From assembly GCA_015063625.1 (NCBI GenBank), contig SVTT01000005.1, positions 44,979 through 108,978 on the forward strand: a stretch of DNA of 64,000 bases. The letters run 5' to 3'. Shown in pieces: positions 3,577-62,655 of the stretch. The first letter of the stretch is position 1, and the number at the start of each line of letters is the position of its first letter. This DNA is from Oscillospiraceae bacterium (GTDB lineage Bacteria > Bacillota > Clostridia > Oscillospirales > CAG-272). The translations under genes and the position numbers were made by a program. The notes under the pieces are model-generated. The model saw only the letters and a program-made list of their open reading frames with translations. It was not told the DNA's origin and did no database searches.

Positions 3577-3651
3577 TGGGATGTCGCCAAGCGGTAAGGC
3601 ACCAGACTTTGACTCTGGCATTCGTAGGTTCAAATCCTGCCATCCCAGCCA
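3577..3651 (+). tRNA. tRNA-Gln (anticodon TTG), CCA encoded
   Basis: The cloverleaf was read by hand. Acceptor TGGGATG pairs with CATCCCA. The anticodon stem is CCAGA/TCTGG and the loop is CT-TTG-AC. The T-arm has GGTTCAAATCC. Overall it resembles bacterial tRNA-Gln. Confidence 0.93.
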
Positions 3652-3687: not shown

Positions 3688-3855
3688 ACTTTTTCACTTT
3701 TCACTCTTCACTTTTCACTAAAACCTCTTGTCGTTTTTTGGCAAGTAATAAGTAATAAGAACCTGCTTCGCAGAACCTTGATACTCGCATTGCTCGTAAT
3801 ATGTGAATAGTGAAGAAGTAAGGCAGCTTTTCGCCAAGGCGAAAAGCATTTTTTT
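3688..3855. repeat. possible degenerate member of the word/hairpin 'zipper' element family
   Basis: Four head-to-tail (T/C)TTTCAC words occupy 3691-3718. The complementary GTGAA word occurs at 3803 and 3810. Between them are GTAATAA x2 and small hairpins (CTGC-TTC-GCAG). The segment ends in a strong terminator, GCTTTTCGCC-AA-GGCGAAAAGC plus a T-run (3826-3855). Confidence 0.35.
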
Positions 3856-3915: not shown

Positions 3916-4344
3916 GTGAAAAAAACAAAACAAAAACATTATGCTTTTAATACCCAACTGTTTTTTGTCATCGCCCTTTTTGCCATTTTTTTGGTTTTAT
4001 CTATATGTGCTGCAATCGAACGAGAGATTGGACTTTCAATAGGCTTTGCGATTGCCACTCTGCTTCCCATCTTTGTTTTTTTAATATCACCATTGTATAC
4101 GGCTTTTTCGGATGAAGAAATCGAAATCGTTTATATAATGGGACAAAGAGAAATTATTAAGTGGAGAAACATAAGGAGCATACGTTTAAACGGAGCTTGG
4201 ATTAGCAGAGGTGGAGGATTCCCTCACTATGAGGTTGCTTACCCAACCAATGCGAAACGTGCATTTTTTGTTCGCGGAGAAATCCCCAAAACAAGAAAAA
4301 CAAAAAAATATATCAAAATGTATTATAAGAAAGATATTATATAA
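3916..4344 (+). CDS. hypothetical small membrane protein encoded in an AT-rich islet
   Basis: GTG start at 3916 with GGCGGTGA upstream, giving 142 aa. Two N-terminal hydrophobic helices (LFFVIALFAIFLVLSICAAI, IGFAIATLLPIFVFLISPL) are followed by a K/R-rich tail. A-rich codon usage is visibly unlike the neighbouring genes. A TTGCAA-17-TATACT promoter lies at 3861-3889. Confidence 0.5.
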   Translation: MKKTKQKHYAFNTQLFFVIALFAIFLVLSICAAIEREIGLSIGFAIATLLPIFVFLISPLYTAFSDEEIEIVYIMGQREIIKWRNIRSIRLNGAWISRGGGFPHYEVAYPTNAKRAFFVRGEIPKTRKTKKYIKMYYKKDII

Positions 4345-4430
4345 ATTGGTGTTGCCTACATTGGTTAGTCCCCGTGGGAGTTCGAAACCTTATTAAAGAA
4401 CGCAAAAAATATCTTTTTCGTAGCCTTTGC

Positions 4431-4640
4431 ACAGAAAAAAGCACTTGCGTGAGCAAGTGCTTTTTTCAACGAAATCCGCCTTCTGCGGAAGAAATCCACC
4501 TGCGGTGGATGAAATCGCTTCGCGATGAAATCCGACTTCGTCGGGATAGGAGAGGCGGATTTTATTTCATCTGAGGCCGTAGGCTGAAGATTTCATCCGA
4601 GCATGCGAGGATTTCATCGTGCAGAGCACGATTCCATTTT
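4431..4640 (-). repeat. zipper element, copy E (word GATGAAATC(C) / (G)GATTTCATC)
   Basis: A terminator-like hairpin comes first (ACAGAAAAAAGCACTTGC-GTGA-GCAAGTGCTTTTTT, 4431-4466). GAAATC(C) then occurs at 4471, 4491, 4511 and 4527. Its spacers are hairpins: CCGCCTTCTGCGG, CCACCTGCGGTGG, TCGCTTCGCGA, CCGACTTCGTCGG. The complementary word GATTTCATC-type occurs at 4557-4571, 4589 and 4609, with a degenerate copy at 4630. Confidence 0.6.
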
Positions 4641-4927
4641 TCTTGCCCGGCCGAATTCGAATCGGTTCCGACTCCCCCCGGAGGGAGTTTTGGTATACCG
4701 GAGAACGGATCGATAAAGAGAATGTTGAAAGCGCGGCGAGCAGCAAAAGGGCAAAGCGATAAATTTTCAACGCACCGTGCGCTCAAAGGTCACAAAAAAT
4801 TGTTGCAAAAGGCAGGGCTTTGTGTTAAAATGAGGGTGGTCGCACAGGGCCCTGCCGATTTTGAAGGGCATACTGTCGCGGCTTCGATACGATCGAAAAC
4901 AAAATTACATATCAAAGGAGAACGATC

Positions 4928-5689
4928 ATGACCGAACTGAAGGGTAAAGTTGTCATCATTACAGGAGGCGGCAGAGGCATTGGCTTCGGGCTTTCCACCG
5001 CATTTGCTAAGGCGGGTGCAGATCTTGTGATCACTGGGCGCACCGAGTCGACACTGCTTGCCGCAAAAGAGAATCTTGAGCGCGATTACGGCTGCCGCGT
5101 GCTTGCCGTCACTGCCGACGGTGCCGATGAGGCGGCGATCAAAAACGTGATCGATCAGGCGGTTGCGACCTTTGGCAGGATCGATGCGGTCATCAACAAT
5201 GCGCAGGCATCCGCCTCGGGCAAGATGCTGATTGACCACACCAGGGAGGACCTTGACCTTGCCATTTATTCGGGCATCTATGCCACCTTCTTCTATATGC
5301 GCGAGGCGTTTCCGTATCTGAAGAAGACGGGCGGCTGTGTGATCAACTTTGCCTCGGGCGCAGGACTCTTCGGCAGAATTGCACAGTCCTCGTATGCTGC
5401 GGCAAAGGAGGGCATCAGAGGTCTTTCCCGCGTGGCTGCGACCGAGTGGGCACCCGACGGCGTGCGCGTTAATGTCATTTGTCCTCTCGCGATGACCGAG
5501 GGACTGAAGAAGTTCAAGGAGGAATACCCCGAGCGCTACGAGCAGACCATCAAGGGCGTGCCGATGGGCAGATTTGCCGATCCCGAAAAGGATGTCGGTC
5601 GCGTGTGTGTCTTCCTTTGCTCGGATGAGGCATCCTACATTACAGGCGAGACCATTACGCTCCAGGGCGGCAGCGGTCTGAGACCTTGA
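4928..5689 (+). CDS. SDR-family (short-chain dehydrogenase/reductase) oxidoreductase
   Basis: 253 aa. It has the TGGGRGIG cofactor motif, NNAQ, and the catalytic YAAAK. RBS AAAGGAGAA lies upstream. Confidence 0.85.
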   Translation: MTELKGKVVIITGGGRGIGFGLSTAFAKAGADLVITGRTESTLLAAKENLERDYGCRVLAVTADGADEAAIKNVIDQAVATFGRIDAVINNAQASASGKMLIDHTREDLDLAIYSGIYATFFYMREAFPYLKKTGGCVINFASGAGLFGRIAQSSYAAAKEGIRGLSRVAATEWAPDGVRVNVICPLAMTEGLKKFKEEYPERYEQTIKGVPMGRFADPEKDVGRVCVFLCSDEASYITGETITLQGGSGLRP

Positions 5690-27416: not shown

Positions 27417-27817
27417 AAAAAAGCACTTGTGGCATAGCGTGATGTCCTTAACGGACAAATCACGCTAACTAAGTTTGCCCTTGCGGGCAAGTGAAGTTTA
27501 CTTCGTAAGTGAAGTTATCCTGCGGATAGTGAAGTTTTGCCTTCGGCAAAGTGGGCAAACTTAACTTCACTGCGAGCTTTGGTGAGCAACTTCACTGTGT
27601 ATCACACAACTTCACTTTTGCGGCAGCAAAAACTTCACTGACAGAAAAAGAGCAAACATACAAGATTTTTGTCTTGCGTGTTTGCTCTTTCTGTTTGTGA
27701 TATGGGTTTGGGCTTAGCCCATAGAGTATTTGACTAGTCAAATGCGATGCTCGCACTTAGCGGTATTTTTCAATTTCTCCGCTAAGGACATCGCCCAATA
27801 GCCGCAAGTGCTTTTTT
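27417..27817. repeat. ~39-bp imperfect inverted repeat (split terminator stem) bracketing a ~325-bp hairpin-rich segment
   Basis: The left arm is AAAAAAGCACTTGTGGCATAGCGTGATGTCCTTAACGG (27417-27454). The right arm is CCGCTAAGGACATCGCCCAATAGCCGCAAGTGCTTTTTT (27779-27817). The outer 17 bp differ at one base and match the stem of the intact terminator at 4435-4466. Confidence 0.7.
27437..27694 (+). repeat. zipper element, copy A (word GTGAAGTT / AACTTCAC)
   Basis: GTGAAGTT occurs at 27491, 27509 and 27529. AACTTCAC occurs at 27563, 27588, 27608 and 27631. Every spacer is self-complementary. The central hairpin is TTTGCC-TTCG-GGCAAA. Capping hairpins lie at 27437-27465 and 27641-27694. Confidence 0.75.
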
Positions 27818-27884: not shown

Positions 27885-27928
27885 GGGGCGCGAAAGATCC
27901 CCCGAGAGCGCGATGCTCTCGGGGGATC
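27885..27928 (-). terminator. terminator hairpin after RNase P RNA
   Basis: Minus strand reads GATCCCCCGAGAGC-ATCGC-GCTCTCGGGGGATC followed by TTTCG. The 14-bp stem is perfect but the T-run is weak. Confidence 0.55.
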
Positions 27929-28285
27929 TGAACCTTGCCGATAAGCCGGGTTCTGTCGTGAACGGCCATCTATCTGCGCCCTGCGTCGCCGCAGGGCTTC
28001 GGGATCGCTCCCGTGCCACCCGGGGGAATACGTCGGGCAAACATCCCCCATACGGTGTTGCTTCGGATAGGGTTTACAGCAAACCTATGTTACCATAGGA
28101 GTGGGTGAGCTCTTACCTCGCCTTTCCATCCTTACCCCTCTCTGAAAGGGGCGGTTTATTTCTGTTGCACTTTCCCGGCAGTCGCCTGCGGCTGACGTTA
28201 TCAGCTATCCTGCCCTTTGAAGCCCGGACTTTCCTCACGGTAATACCTTTCGGCAACATACCGCGCGGCCGTTTGGTAAGGTTAC
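27929..28285 (-). ncRNA. rnpB: RNase P RNA, bacterial type A
   Basis: The minus strand contains GAGGAAAGTCCGGGC, AGTGCAACAGAAATAAACCGCC, GGTAAGGATGGAAAGGCGAGGTAAGAGCTCACC and AGATAGATGGCCGTTCACGACAGAACCCGGCTTATCGG. P1 pairs AACCTTACC with GGCAAGGTT. A TATAAT lies at 28292-28297 (minus). Ends are approximate. Confidence 0.93.
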
Positions 28286-32663: not shown

Positions 32664-32955
32664 TTGGGCGACCTACGGTAAAGCAGGTCGCCCAACTAAG
32701 TTTGCCCATTCGGGCAAGTGAAGTTTACTGCGTAAGTGAAGTTATCCTGCGGATAGTGAAGTTTTGCCTTCGGCAAAGTGGGCAAACTTAACTTCACTTG
32801 TGCGAAGCACAAACATCACTGCAAAGCAACTTCACTTTCACGTTAGTGAAAACTTCACCTATTACCTCCCGAAAAACGCAAATGTAACACACCATACTTG
32901 CAGAGCAAGAAGTGTGAAAAGGAGTACAGGCAAAATGCCCGTACTCCTTTTTGTT
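32664..32955 (+). repeat. zipper element, copy B
   Basis: GTGAAGTT occurs at 32718, 32736 and 32756. AACTTCAC occurs at 32790, 32828 and 32851, and AACATCAC at 32812. The left ~100 nt are almost identical to copy A. The capping hairpins are TTGGGCGACCT..AGGTCGCCCAA (32664-32695) and AAAAGGAGTAC..GTACTCCTTTT (32917-32951). Confidence 0.75.
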
Positions 32956-41699: not shown

Positions 41700-41810
41700 A
41701 ACCGCATAGAAATCGGGGGTGCTGCCAAACAGGGCGGCTGAGATGGGCAATGCCCAAACCCTTAAACCTGATACGGATAATGCCGGCGTAGGGAAGAGAT
41801 CGAGTATTCT
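41700..41810 (+). ncRNA. TPP (THI-box) riboswitch aptamer
   Basis: CGGGGGTGCTGCC...GGCGGCTGAGA...AACCCTTAAACCTGATACGGATAATGCCGGCGTAGGGAAG matches the THI element consensus (GGGGTGC / CTGAGA / ACCCTTTGAACCTGATCTGGATAATGCCAGCGTAGGGAA). Confidence 0.9.
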
Positions 41811-41846
41811 GTTACCGCACGGAGATTTTCGTGCGGTAATTTTATA
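41811..41846 (+). terminator. riboswitch expression-platform terminator
   Basis: TTACCGCACG-GAGATTTT-CGTGCGGTAA followed by TTTTAT, 18 nt before the thiT RBS. Confidence 0.7.
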
Positions 41847-43539: not shown

Positions 43540-43796
43540 ACAGAGAGCAGACACGCAAGACGCTTCGTCTTGCGTGTCTGCTCTTCTGTTAGTGATGTTT
43601 TTGCTATCGCAAAAGTGATGTTATTCGCTTCGCTCATCATGATGTTGCTCGCCAAGGCTCGCAGTGATGTGATGTTTGCCCACTGTGCCGAAGGCACAAC
43701 ATCATTCACGCAGTGAACATCACAAGGCGAAGCCGACATCACTTGCCCATAAGGGCAAACATCGTTTCGCGTGATACTCCGTTAAGAGTATCACGC
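43540..43796 (-). repeat. zipper element, copy D (word GTGATGTT / AACATCAC)
   Basis: Hairpin B is ACAGAGAGCAGACACGCAAGAC-GCTT-CGTCTTGCGTGTCTGCTCTTCTGT (43540-43589). GTGATGTT-type words lie at 43592, 43615, 43639 and 43664. AACATCA(C/T) lies at 43698, 43716 and 43735. Hairpin A is GCGTGATACTC..GAGTATCACGC (43769-43796). Confidence 0.75.
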
Positions 43797-43895
43797 TGTG
43801 CCGTCGGGTCTTTTTATGCTTTTCCCGATCGCTTTTTCTTGACAGAGCGCACAATTTGTGATATCATAATATGAGTTATAAGAAAGGCTGATGCT

Positions 43896-61473: not shown

Positions 61474-61501
61474 ATAAAGCAGGTTTTACAACCGCAAAAA
61501 C

Positions 61502-61794
61502 AAAAGGAGTACGAACATTTGTTTGTACTCTTTTTCACACGCCTTGCCTGCAAGGTATAGTGTGTTACATTATACTTTTGTTTTTTGGGTGGTAAAAGGT
61601 GAAGTTTTCGCTATCGCGAAAGTGAAGTTGCTATGCAGTGAAGTTTGTGCTGCGCACAAGTGAAGTTAAGTTTGCCCACTTTGCCGAAGGCAAAACTTCA
61701 CTATCCGCAGGATAACTTCACTTACGCAGTAAACTTCACTTGCCCCTTGGGGCAAACTTAGTTGGGGCACCTGCAATATCGCAGGTGTCCCAAC
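61502..61794 (-). repeat. zipper element, copy C (inverted orientation)
   Basis: On the plus strand, GTGAAGTT occurs at 61599, 61622, 61638 and 61660, and AACTTCAC at 61694, 61714 and 61732. Its reverse complement aligns with copy B at roughly 85-90% by eye. The capping hairpins lie at 61502-61535 and 61761-61794. Confidence 0.75.
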
Positions 61795-62570: not shown

Positions 62571-62655
62571 GCGAGAGTGGCGGAACTGGCAGACGCGCAC
62601 GTTTGAGGGGCGTGTGATTTCCATCGTACGGGTTCAAGTCCCGTCTCTCGCACCA
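62571..62655 (+). tRNA. tRNA-Leu (anticodon GAG), class II with long variable arm, CCA encoded
   Basis: Acceptor GCGAGAG pairs with CTCTCGC. The anticodon stem is CACGT/GCGTG with loop TT-GAG-GG. The variable arm is TGATTTCCATCGTAC and the T-arm is ACGGG-TTCAAGT-CCCGT. Length 85 nt. Confidence 0.92.

What the first reader, a model, noticed from the sequence alone, without database searches (positions are those of the whole stretch)
4431..4640. Copy E: the same architecture built from an unrelated word, GATGAAATC(C) / (G)GATTTCATC
A terminator-like hairpin (4431-4466) comes first; its first bases, ACAGAAAAA, match the start of hairpin B in copy A. Four GAAATC(C) words follow, separated by four different small hairpins, two with TTCG loops. 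A short central segment precedes three to four complementary GATTTCATC-type words separated by further hairpins. Primary sequence is not alignable to copies A-D, yet the design principle is identical. Either the family is old and evolving under structural constraint, or a generating mechanism repeatedly creates such arrays.
Basis: seen in the sequence. Interest (0 to 1): 0.65.

Follow-up and report, generated by a model that had tools for sequence, protein, structure and literature searches.

The report
Sub-threshold Gut-1 RNA element, full-length
The repeat-and-hairpin array at 4468-4638 is a slightly sub-threshold copy of a known orphan gut-bacterial RNA motif (Gut-1, Rfam RF01706), and comparing it with over 100 relatives shows the motif is really about 170 nt long, with a second half of complementary words that the published model omits.

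Summary
Positions 4468-4638 (+) hold four (R)UGAAAUC-type words spaced by four hairpins, a centre, then four complementary GAUUUCAUC-type words spaced by three hairpins. A bidirectional terminator hairpin (4434-4467) precedes them. Such arrays occur five times in the window and about 0.05 times per shuffled window.

The word is not unrelated to the family. UGAAAU is the consensus word of Rfam Gut-1 (RF01706), which hits E at 45.8 bits against a cutoff of 50. Copies A-C are Gut-1 hits above the cutoff. A model built only from A-D finds E full-length (28.6 bits, E about 1e-5).

At least 120 loci in gut Clostridia MAGs carry the same E-type element, and sampled ones score 50-78 bits. Their hairpins covary.

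Three features are not in the published 77-nt motif:
- a second half made of reverse-complement words;
- a long-range helix (4472-4481 with 4553-4562) that competes with hairpin 1;
- a usual position just after tRNA/tmRNA terminators, and in a third of cases just before a four-helix-bundle gene.

G·U and tandem G·A signatures indicate that the + strand folds. I read it as a structured RNA with two competing folds. Its function is still unknown.

The parts
4434..4467 (+). Bidirectional intrinsic-terminator hairpin (GA6-GCACTTGC / GTGA loop / GCAAGTGC-T6C). It abuts the element at a fixed distance (T-run, C, AAC, word 1).
   Evidence: I1: 15 bp, 100% complementary. The same junction '...GCTTTTTTCAACTAAATCC' is seen in most E-type loci. 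GNRA-type loops on this strand are read from the sequence.
4468..4638 (+). Full-length Gut-1-type element 'E' (171 nt): 5' domain, centre and 3' domain.
   Evidence: Rfam Gut-1 hit 4467-4536, 45.8 bits. The A-D-derived model R1 hits 4467-4639 across model positions 1-175. Aligned with 70 homologs in A1.
4468..4477 (+). Word 1 (AACGAAATCC; family consensus AACTAAATCC).
4475..4489 (+). Hairpin 1 (UCCGC / CUUCU / GCGGA). Its 5' arm is shared with the long-range helix, so the two are mutually exclusive.
   Evidence: A hairpin-1 3' arm is present in 65 of 84 homologs.
4472..4481 (+). 5' strand of the long-range helix 'P-long' (AAATCCGCCT).
   Evidence: I9: 10 nt, 100% complementary to 4553-4562. 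Covariation.
4553..4562 (+). 3' strand of P-long (AGGCGGATTT), inside the centre.
   Evidence: I9. Helix 1 is 97.6% paired, and 5 of its 11 pairs show changes on both sides. X to centre complementarity is 72 of 84, against 25 when permuted.
4491..4497 (+). Word 2 (GAAATCC, degenerate at its 5' side: aGAAATCC).
4495..4509 (+). Hairpin 2 (UCCACC / UGC / GGUGGA).
4508..4516 (+). Word 3 (GATGAAATC).
4514..4526 (+). Hairpin 3 (AUCGC / UUC / GCGAU).
   Evidence: The column pair 57:70 shows four Watson-Crick pair types.
4524..4533 (+). Word 4 (GATGAAATCC).
4531..4545 (+). Hairpin 4 (UCCGAC / UUC / GUCGGG, with one G·U pair).
   Evidence: Columns 80-81 pair with 93-94 and covary.
4564..4571 (+). First complementary word (ATTTCATC), directly 3' of P-long.
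   Evidence: I20, I21.
4569..4591 (+). Hairpin 5 (AUCUGAGGCC / GUA / GGCUGAAGAU) with a tandem G·A / A·G internal loop.
   Evidence: The tandem GA/GA design is found 37 times in 84 homologs, with a covarying inner stem.
4589..4597 (+). Complementary word (GATTTCATC).
4595..4612 (+). Hairpin 6 (AUCCGAGC / GCGAGGAU; tandem G·A variant).
   Evidence: (I10).
4610..4618 (+). Complementary word (GATTTCATC).
4616..4632 (+). Hairpin 7 (AUCGUGC / AGA / GCACGAU), followed by a U-rich tail.
   Evidence: flagged as terminator-like. Helix 7 has 4 of 5 pairs with changes on both sides.
4630..4638 (+). Last complementary word, degenerate (GATTCCATT; consensus GATTTCATT).
27466..27640 (+). Paralogous family member A (word GTGAAGTT).
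   Evidence: Rfam Gut-1 55.7 bits. Sequence.
32693..32860 (+). Paralogous family member B (word GTGAAGTT).
   Evidence: Rfam Gut-1 53.3 bits. Sequence.
61597..61764 (-). Paralogous family member C (word GTGAAGTT).
   Evidence: Rfam Gut-1 50.4 bits. Sequence.
43590..43768 (-). Paralogous family member D (word GTGATGTT), sub-threshold in Rfam.
   Evidence: Rfam Gut-1 34.8 bits on the - strand. Sequence.

Best explanation
E is a divergent, slightly sub-threshold member of the Gut-1 RNA family (Rfam RF01706).

Shown:
- The natural unit of the family is a structured element of about 170 nt, not the published 77 nt.
- It is conserved in many gut Clostridia (Oscillospirales-type MAGs).
- The pairing signatures fit the + strand, which is the Rfam orientation.
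- The 5' domain starts with word 1 plus the 5' arm of hairpin 1. This stretch can pair locally (hairpin 1) or with the centre (P-long, 4472-4481 with 4553-4562).
- When P-long forms, it closes a multi-branch loop. That loop holds hairpins 2-4, joined by short purine linkers (GAA inside GAUGAAAUC).
- The 3' domain is a string of hairpins 5-7 joined by the exact complement (UUC inside GAUUUCAUC).

Inferred:
- The element is made as RNA, as the 3' trailer or read-through of the upstream gene. In this window that gene is ORF 3916-4344. In most relatives it is a tRNA or tmRNA gene.
- The RNA switches between two folds. In one, the halves zip word-to-word into a stack of four-way junctions with hairpin 1 intact. 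In the other, P-long is formed and the words are exposed.
- Because every word in one element matches every complementary word, pairing can occur in several registers, or between molecules.
- What the RNA acts on is not known.
For: Identity:
- Rfam Gut-1 aligns 4467-4536 over all 77 model positions at 45.8 bits, E = 7.9e-8.
- Of 19 related loci scanned at Rfam's gathering threshold, 11 gave 14 Gut-1 hits at 50.4-78.3 bits; 13 of the 14 lie in the orientation used here, and most coincide with the E-type element itself.
- The model built from A-D alone recovers E full-length.
- Element length and word positions are nearly constant across seven word types.

Single-strand structure:
- On 71 aligned homologs, 97.2% of cells pair, against 87.1% in shuffles and 27-43% when the partners are slid.
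- There are 239 double-change cells against 62, and 0 of 500 shuffles reach the observed covariation score.
- P-long covaries: GC 52 / AU 18, CG 35 / UA 32 and CG 41 / UA 14.
- The three nucleotides after word 1 match the centre in 72 of 84 elements, against a permuted mean of 25 and maximum of 40.

Strand:
- Internal G·U pairs outnumber A·C 26 to 9.
- Tandem GA/GA internal loops occur 37 times. The TC/TC pattern expected if the other strand folded occurs 0 times.

Against a dsDNA site array:
- Word-to-word spacing varies from 16 to 28 nt without helical phasing.

Transcription direction:
- A, C and E lie just downstream of co-directional genes, A and C with no terminator in between.
- In most of the 60 E-type loci scanned, the nearest tRNA or tmRNA gene lies a short distance upstream and points the same way.

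Competing folds:
- Minimum-free-energy predictions split between P-long (26 of 72) and word-to-word pairing (40 of 72 with at least one rung).
- RNAalifold picks P-long for E-type elements and word-to-word rungs for A-D.
Against: - E is below Rfam's curated cutoff (45.8 against 50 bits).
- No transcript evidence was available.
- In E and most E-type loci a strong terminator sits immediately upstream, with no room for a promoter. Expression on the + strand therefore needs read-through. I found no convincing promoter for either strand.
- Copies B and D have no co-directional upstream gene.
- All the terminators are bidirectional, so they do not fix the direction.
- Within E-type elements the words are invariant, so word-to-word pairing is supported only by comparison between word types, not by covariation within one alignment.
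- The sequences are related, so the shuffle controls overstate significance.
- Contiguous heptads of a similar word without hairpins (3688-3720) hint that the word itself may be a binding site.
Confidence: 0.6

Rival explanations
1. The element works as double-stranded DNA. The words would be an array of binding sites, four direct and four inverted, for a DNA-binding protein. That would make it an iteron, centromere or operator-like array, for example one controlling the adjacent promoter. The hairpin-forming spacers would be incidental.
For: - In 28 of 84 related loci the last word abuts the -35 box of a strong promoter (CATTGAAAA-17-TGTGATATAAT) for a four-helix-bundle gene.
- Contiguous heptad arrays of a similar word (TTTTCAC/CTTCAC), without hairpins, follow tRNA terminators in the window (3688-3720) and in several loci.
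- The direct-plus-inverted layout resembles arrays of transposase, ParR or omega-protein sites (from my own knowledge).
Against: - The spacers keep complementarity through compensatory changes. Double-stranded DNA has no need for that.
- Spacing between words varies from 16 to 28 bp, so helical phasing is not kept.
- Mismatches are strand-asymmetric: G·U 26 against A·C 9, and GA/GA 37 against TC/TC 0.
- Three different words coexist in one genome, and at least seven exist in the family. Each would need its own protein, yet no variable DNA-binding gene is linked.
- Two thirds of the elements, including E, lack the four-helix-bundle gene.
Confidence: 0.12
2. It is a selfish or relic repeat. It would be a MITE-like mobile element, or the leftover end of an integrative island that targets tRNA and tmRNA genes. 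Its structure would matter only for its own spread, for example as single-stranded DNA.
For: - There are five copies in 64 kb, and tandem or duplicated copies occur in L146 and L148 and in the 2010 seed alignment.
- It sits next to tRNA genes of at least 14 identities and next to tmRNA genes, which are classic integration sites.
- The flanks are modular and interchangeable. One combination is the terminator hairpin. The other is a GCGTGAT...CTTAACGG...ATCACGC hairpin paired with a long 3' hairpin.
- Two IMG/VR provirus calls end next to an E-type element.
- On the opposite strand many loops are GAA or GCA triloops closed by C-G, the stable DNA mini-hairpin type (from my own knowledge).
Against: - No terminal inverted repeats or target-site duplications are visible.
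- No transposase, integrase or phage gene recurs within 5 kb in 84 loci.
- The unit count is nearly constant and the hairpins are positionally homologous across many species. That points to long vertical persistence under selection.
- The tandem G·A and G·U bias favours the Rfam strand.
Confidence: 0.12
3. It is a small RNA transcribed from the minus strand. It would start beyond 4640 and end at the bidirectional terminator 4467-4434. In that reading the 'first half' described by the reader is the 3' half of the RNA.
For: - A structured body followed by a strong intrinsic terminator is the usual design of a small RNA, and on the minus strand the terminator is at the 3' end.
- The architecture reads the same on both strands. 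Rfam also gives a 25.8-bit minus-strand hit at 4585-4645.
- The minus strand folds almost as well as the plus strand (z = -5.7).
- Hairpin 1 tetraloops are GNRA-like (GCAA, GUAA, GAAA) on that strand, as read.
Against: - The Rfam score is 45.8 bits on the + strand and 25.8 on the - strand, and R1 hits E only on the + strand.
- G·U pairs exceed A·C, and the GA/GA loops would become C·U/U·C mismatches on the minus strand.
- Only weak promoter-like matches, 8 of 12 positions read by eye, lie beyond the last word.
Confidence: 0.1
4. It is a chance arrangement or low-complexity artefact.
For: None beyond the short length of the individual words.
Against: - 0.05 arrays per shuffled window against 5 observed.
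- 0 arrays in shuffles against 70 in related loci.
- At least 120 homologous loci were found.
Confidence: 0.01

Closest known systems
Gut-1 RNA motif (Rfam RF01706; Weinberg et al. 2010, PMC2864571)
   Same: - The first half of E has the same layout: three hairpins separated by RUGAAAU words, preceded by CAAnnAAAU.
- It is found in gut Clostridia-type sequences.
- The Rfam model aligns E end to end.
- Homologs of E pass the curated cutoff.
   Different: - E itself scores 45.8 bits, below the cutoff of 50.
- The published motif is 77 nt with three hairpins, was described only as 'human gut metagenome only', and has no function assigned.
- Not part of that description: the second half of reverse-complement words and hairpins, the P-long helix, and the link to tRNA/tmRNA terminators and to the four-helix-bundle gene.
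REP/BIME and BOX-type intergenic repeat mosaics (E. coli, Streptococcus pneumoniae); from my own knowledge
   Same: - Multi-copy, modular, hairpin-rich elements of about 100-300 nt.
- They lie in intergenic regions, often just 3' of genes.
- They are thought to act as RNA, for example by protecting transcripts.
   Different: - In REP/BIME the palindromes are the conserved part and the linkers vary. Here the linkers (words) are conserved and the palindromes vary.
- No RAYT or transposase gene is linked.
CsrB/RsmZ-type protein-sponge RNAs; from my own knowledge
   Same: A short motif is repeated many times and displayed between or on variable hairpins.
   Different: - The motif differs between Gut-1 members of a single genome.
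- It is accompanied by its own complement in the same molecule. That fits RNA-RNA pairing better than one protein partner.
Heptad or iteron DNA arrays for omega, ParR or transposase-end binding; from my own knowledge
   Same: Short words in direct and then inverted orientation over about 170 bp.
   Different: - Those arrays have fixed spacing and no need for palindromic spacers.
- Here the spacing varies from 16 to 28 nt and the spacers covary as hairpins.

Membership tests
Gut-1 RNA (Rfam RF01706) | Match to the Rfam covariance model at or above the curated gathering score of 50 bits. | tested here: inconclusive
   E scores 45.8 bits, E = 7.9e-8 in a 631-nt search, over model positions 1-77 on the + strand. 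It is absent from the gathering-threshold scan of the window. Scanning 19 related loci gave 14 Gut-1 hits in 11 of them at 50.4-78.3 bits, most on the E-type element itself.
Gut-1 RNA (Rfam RF01706) | Three consecutive hairpins separated by the conserved RUGAAAU word. | tested here: met
   hp1-hp3 with cGAAAUCC, aGAAAUCC, AUGAAAUC and AUGAAAUCC. The published consensus line reads RGUGAA..AU / RUGAnAU / RUGAAAU.
Gut-1 RNA (Rfam RF01706) | Hairpin stems supported by covariation among homologs. | tested here: met
   14 of 33 pairs have changes on both sides, 239 double-change cells against 62 in shuffles, and slid controls pair at only 27-43%.
Gut-1 RNA (Rfam RF01706) | Occurrence in gut-associated bacteria or metagenomes. 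| tested here: met
   Homologs are in MAGs from ruminant, deer, sheep, goat and faecal samples, labelled Oscillospiraceae, Acutalibacteraceae, Faecousia, Ruminiclostridium or Clostridia. The window encodes SpoVAC.
CRISPR array | Identical repeats of about 28-37 nt, unique spacers of about 30-40 nt, all in one orientation, usually with cas genes. | tested here: not met
   The words are 7-9 nt, the spacers are 9-17-nt palindromes, and the two halves are in opposite orientation. The only CRISPR-related match is a chance-level 18.7-bit hit in copy A.
dsDNA iteron or centromere-like binding-site array | Conserved centre-to-centre spacing (helical phasing) of the sites. | tested here: not met
   Spacing per slot ranges from 16 to 28 nt among 71 homologs.
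MITE / transposon-derived repeat | Terminal inverted repeats, target-site duplication and a linked or genomic transposase family. | tested here: not met
   No terminal inverted repeats or target-site duplications were seen in the flanks. No transposase or integrase recurs among neighbours in 84 loci. Presence/absence polymorphism between strains could not be tested, because every contig found was 99.9-100% identical over the aligned part.
Protein-coding gene (ORFs 4374-4574 + and 4562-4786 -) | An open frame kept among homologs, with family matches. | tested here: not met
   There is no Pfam match. Indels among homologs are not multiples of three, for example slot lengths of 16, 17 and 18.

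The most novel reading that the evidence does not exclude
Gut-1 elements could be a distinct kind of RNA architecture built on a private, self-complementary word.

- Each member repeats its own 7-9-nt word three or four times in the 5' half, and repeats the word's reverse complement three or four times in the 3' half.
- Individually covarying hairpins act as spacers.
- All words of one element stay identical, while different elements, even in one genome, use different words.
- This allows multi-register zipping into stacked four-way junctions, or pairing between molecules into multimers. The hp1/P-long competition would gate it.
- The RNA would be made from the trailers of highly transcribed stable-RNA genes.
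- It may work with the Avd-like four-helix-bundle protein that is encoded next to a third of the E-type elements.
Probability: 0.25. Interest if true: 0.75.

Novelty: new member of a known kind. Interest (0 to 1): 0.5.

Why it matters
Gut-1 has been an orphan motif since 2010, with a one-line description and no function. Placing E in that family removes the apparent puzzle of convergent design from an unrelated word.

The comparison also gives the family a fuller anatomy:
- The unit is about 170 nt, with a mirror half.
- A covarying long-range helix competes with hairpin 1.
- Strand-specific G·A and G·U signatures are present.
- The words within one element stay uniform while different elements use different words.
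- The element sits at a fixed place behind tRNA/tmRNA terminators.
- A PF05635 four-helix-bundle gene is often the next gene.

These are concrete handles for experiments on an abundant, unstudied RNA of gut Clostridia. They also suggest that the Rfam model could be extended, so that sub-threshold copies such as D and E are annotated.

Tried and rejected
- **tRNA anticodon or T-box mimic.** GUGAAA is complementary to the tRNA-Glu anticodon loop, which suggested a T-box-like function. The neighbouring tRNAs have at least 14 different identities, and tmRNA genes also occur. I treat the match as numerology.
- **CRISPR-like or type III antitoxin-like repeat arrays.** The unit sizes and orientations do not fit.
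- **Coding potential of the overlapping ORFs.** There is no family match and the frame is not conserved.
- **A generic collection scan.** GTGAWRTT x3 against viral contigs returned mostly unrelated tandem repeats, so loci L008-L127 were not used.
- **Strain-level variation or empty sites.** Looking up the neighbouring SDR protein gave only contigs 99.9-100% identical over the aligned part.
- **Promoters.** Scans and reading by eye gave nothing convincing on either strand.
- **Single-sequence folding.** It gives inconsistent structures across homologs, so I did not rely on it.
- **A mixed-type alignment.** MAFFT aligned the hairpin arms inconsistently. I used word-anchored parsing and pair counts only where the columns were consistent.
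- **Linked genes.** Neighbour clustering found only the four-helix-bundle gene. That gene is absent from the window.
- **Literature.** Nothing on Gut-1 turned up beyond the 2010 survey, and nothing linking PF05635 to it.
Full report
**What is at 4431-4640**

- A 15-bp perfect hairpin (4434-4448 and 4453-4467, GTGA loop) has an A-run before it and a T-run after it, so it is a bidirectional terminator.
- It is followed by AAC and then four words: cGAAATCC, aGAAATCC, GATGAAATC and GATGAAATC.
- The words are spaced by four small hairpins (4475-4489, 4495-4509, 4514-4526 and 4531-4545).
- After a centre of about 18 nt come ATTTCATC, GATTTCATC, GATTTCATC and GATTCCATT.
- These are spaced by three further hairpins (4569-4591, 4595-4612 and 4616-4632).

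GAU-GAA-AUC is a near-palindrome, and its outer triplets form the closing base pairs of the neighbouring hairpins. Only GAA (first half) or UUC (second half) is therefore left between hairpins.

**Is it more than chance?**

- GATGAAATC occurs five times in the window, four of them here, against 0.92 expected.
It finds exactly five arrays in the window (4471-4615, 27471-27639, 32698-32858, 43592-43763 and 61599-61759). It finds 0.05 per dinucleotide-preserving shuffle.
- In 929 kb of related loci the stricter form finds 70 arrays, and none in shuffles.

**What it is**

A gathering-threshold Rfam scan of the window finds Gut-1 RNA (RF01706) three times: 27466-27540 (+), 32693-32767 (+) and 61690-61764 (-).

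An E-value scan of 4300-4930 finds the same family at 4467-4536 on the + strand. The score is 45.8 bits against a cutoff of 50, with E = 7.9e-8, over all 77 model positions. The Rfam consensus word is GUGAAAU, so E's word is closer to the family consensus than the GUGAAGUU of A-C. The fourth copy, D (43590-43768, - strand, word GTGATGTT), is also sub-threshold at 34.8 bits.

A covariance model was built from A-D only. It finds E full-length (4467-4639, + strand, model positions 1-175) at 28.6 bits with a rough E of 8.5e-6. Apart from A-D themselves (on both strands) and one insignificant 5-bit match inside E's terminator hairpin, E is the only hit in the window. 'Unrelated word, not alignable' is therefore wrong. 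E is a divergent Gut-1 element.

**Relatives elsewhere**

Nearly all hits are gut MAGs labelled Oscillospiraceae, Acutalibacteraceae, Faecousia, Ruminiclostridium, Eubacteriales or Clostridia. Two more hits lie in IMG/VR contigs.

Oriented and aligned (A1, 71 sequences), they give a tight consensus:
[terminator ...GCTTTTTTC]AACTAAATCC-X-loop-X'-GGAAWRAAATCC-hp2-GGATGAAATC-hp3-GATGAAATCC-hp4-linker-X'-GGATTTAATTTCATC-hp5-GATTTCATC-hp6-GATTTCATC-hp7-GATTTCATT.

The window's E is an ordinary member of this set. I scanned 19 of these loci at Rfam's gathering threshold. Eleven of them gave 14 Gut-1 hits at 50.4-78.3 bits, and 13 of the 14 lie in the orientation used here.

**Beyond the published motif**

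[quoted passage not shown] Its alignment annotates nothing downstream of the third hairpin. No later paper turned up. Four features are new relative to that description.

*First, the second half.* In every array examined, the 3' half carries the exact reverse complement of that array's own word.

| Word | Reverse complement in second half |
|---|---|
| ATGAAATC | GATTTCAT |
| GTGAAGT | ACTTCAC |
| GTGATGT | ACATCAC |
| ATGATAT | ATATCAT |
| ATGAAGC | GCTTCAT |
| AGCTAAA | TTTAGCT |
| ACATCAT | ATGATGT |

In the 2010 seed, GUGAUAUU is likewise matched by AAUAUCAC. Element length (168-193 nt) and word positions are nearly the same across types. Words are uniform within an element and differ between elements, even within this one genome.

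*Second, a long-range helix.* Word 1 plus the 5' arm of hairpin 1 pairs with the centre. In E this is 4472-4481 with 4553-4562, 10 bp and perfect.
- RNAalifold prefers this helix to hairpin 1.
- Its variable positions covary: GC 52 / AU 18, CG 35 / UA 32 and CG 41 / UA 14.
- The trinucleotide after word 1 matches the centre in 72 of 84 elements, against a mean of 25 and a maximum of 40 in 2000 permutations.
- The same trinucleotide also matches the 3' arm of hairpin 1 in 65 of 84 elements. Two mutually exclusive pairings are therefore both conserved.
- The equivalent helix is visible in A-D and in the other word types.

*Third, overall structural support.* On A1, 97.2% of cells form standard pairs, against 87.1% in shuffles and 27-43% with slid partners. 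There are 239 double-change cells against 62. None of 500 shuffles reaches the observed covariation score. The sequences are related, so these controls are generous. The slid control and the number of distinct pair types (up to four Watson-Crick types at one pair) are still convincing.

*Fourth, the strand.*
- Inside hairpins, G·U pairs outnumber A·C 26 to 9.
- Hairpin 5, and a variant of hairpin 6, carry a symmetric tandem 5'-GA/5'-GA internal loop with a covarying inner stem. It occurs 37 times in 84 elements. The TC/TC pattern expected if the other strand were the folded one occurs 0 times.
- E has this design in hairpin 5 (4573-4574 opposite 4586-4587) and in hairpin 6.
- This points to the + strand, the Rfam orientation, as the functional single strand.

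**Context**

In most of the 60 E-type loci scanned for tRNAs, the nearest tRNA or tmRNA gene lies a short distance upstream on the word-1 side and points the same way. Its 3' end is followed directly by the terminator hairpin and then by word 1. The tRNAs have at least 14 different identities, and four loci have a tmRNA gene.

In the window the nearest upstream gene is ORF 3916-4344. tRNA-Gln lies 800 nt further up.

Clustering all ORFs within 5 kb of 84 elements gives a single recurrent neighbour, a gene of about 115 aa.
- It belongs to PF05635 / TIGR02436, the four-helix-bundle or '23S rRNA intervening sequence protein' family.
- By my recollection that family includes the DGR accessory protein Avd.
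- It lies directly downstream, in the same direction, in 28 of 84 loci.
- Its -35 box abuts the last word.
- The window has no such gene.
- No transposase, integrase or phage gene recurs.

Copies A and C in the window lie in the 3' untranslated region of a co-directional gene and are followed by a terminator. B and D have no co-directional upstream gene.

**How it most likely works**

Shown: the element is a conserved, single-strand-structured unit with seven hairpins, one competing long-range helix, and two sets of mutually complementary linkers. Its pairing signatures fit the + strand.

Inferred: it is made as RNA from the trailer or read-through of the upstream gene, and it alternates between two folds.
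- In one fold, P-long closes the 5' domain and leaves the words exposed.
- In the other, hairpin 1 is intact and the halves zip word-to-word into stacked four-way junctions.

Single-sequence folding is split between these options. RNAalifold picks P-long for the E-type elements and word-to-word rungs for A-D. That is what a frustrated, multi-register design would give.

All words of one element are interchangeable partners for all complementary words. Pairing in several registers, or between molecules, is therefore possible. I cannot say what the RNA acts on.

**Rivals**

- *A dsDNA binding-site array* is the most serious alternative. The last word is adjacent to a promoter in a third of the loci, and contiguous heptads of a similar word, without hairpins, follow tRNA terminators (window 3688-3720). 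Against it are the compensatory changes in the spacers, the spacing that ranges from 16 to 28 nt without phasing, the strand-asymmetric mismatches, and the coexistence of several words with no linked variable DNA-binding gene.
- *A selfish repeat or integration relic* fits the copy number, the tRNA/tmRNA neighbourhood and the interchangeable flanking modules. However, there are no terminal repeats, no duplications and no linked recombinase. The unit count is nearly constant, with homologous hairpins across species.
- *Minus-strand transcription ending at the bidirectional terminator* remains possible. Only the mismatch signatures and the model scores argue against it.
- *Chance* is excluded.

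**Verdict**

It is partly wrong: the word is the family's own consensus word, and E aligns to both the Rfam model and a model built from A-D.

E is a new, sub-threshold member of a known orphan RNA family. The added value is the full-length anatomy and context of that family. This was not in the literature I could search, and it makes the family experimentally approachable.

Noticed in passing
window 3688-3720: Directly after the terminator of tRNA-Gln (3577-3651) there are four contiguous heptads, TTTTCAC / TTTTCAC / TCTTCAC / TTTTCAC (reverse complement GTGAAAA/GTGAAGA). They resemble the complementary word of copies A-C but have no hairpin spacers. Similar heptad runs follow tRNA terminators in L140 and L206. 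One in L233 runs straight into an E-type word 1.
   Followed up: partly
window 43590-43768 (- strand): Copy D uses a third word (GTGATGTT / AACATCAC) and scores only 34.8 bits with Rfam Gut-1. Like E, it would be missed by standard annotation.
   Followed up: yes
L131-L250 (for example L148 3831-4400, L138 7412-7950): In 28 of 84 related loci a PF05635/TIGR02436 four-helix-bundle gene of about 115 aa (MAENKLADLS...QLERSGTSIGANIREAKYAHS) starts about 65 nt after the element. Its -35 box touches the last word. Variable cargo genes follow it. The window has no such gene.
   Followed up: partly
window 32861-32950 and 61500-61596 (- strand): Copies B and C share a further homologous stretch of about 100 nt, 3' of the array. 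It contains a hairpin (CACAC...CTTGCAG.GCAAG...GTGTG) and a bidirectional terminator (GGAGTAC...GTACTCC). The repeated unit there is therefore about 300 nt.
   Followed up: no
window 27439-27465 and 43769-43797; L134 3229, L203 4389: A 5' hairpin GCGTGAT..C(C/T)TTAACGG..ATCACGC with a conserved CUUAACGG loop precedes copies A and D and also some E-type elements. In several (A, D, L133, L134, L159, L166) it goes together with a long 3' hairpin (ACAGAAAAAGAG...CTCTTTCTGT). In L159 the loop is inverted. The flanking modules are interchangeable between word types.
   Followed up: partly
L173 3956-4118: One array after a tRNA terminator has ACATCAT(T) words first and AATGATGT second. This is the opposite word polarity to all the others. 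It still keeps the long-range helix (CATTTGTGCC with GGCACAAATG).
   Followed up: no
L146 1476-1707, L148 3831-5279; 2010 seed BAAZ01000130: Gut-1 elements occur as tandem or closely duplicated copies. In L148 the two copies are 1.3 kb apart, and their terminator stems differ by compensatory changes.
   Followed up: no
window 27926-28284 (-), 41705-41812 (+), 62571-62655 (+): RNase P RNA (class A), a TPP riboswitch and tRNA-Leu(GAG). Copy A lies about 290 nt from the 3' end of the RNase P RNA gene, so it too is next to a stable-RNA gene.
   Followed up: no
window 4646-4690: The 3' flank of E contains a T-arm-like palindrome (CCGAATTCGAATCGG) and a C6/G-rich hairpin (ACTCCCCCCGGAGGGAGT). A TTCGAA(T)-containing module recurs about 25-30 nt after the last word in several E-type loci (L250, L137, L144, L210, L241, L149, L176).
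   Followed up: no
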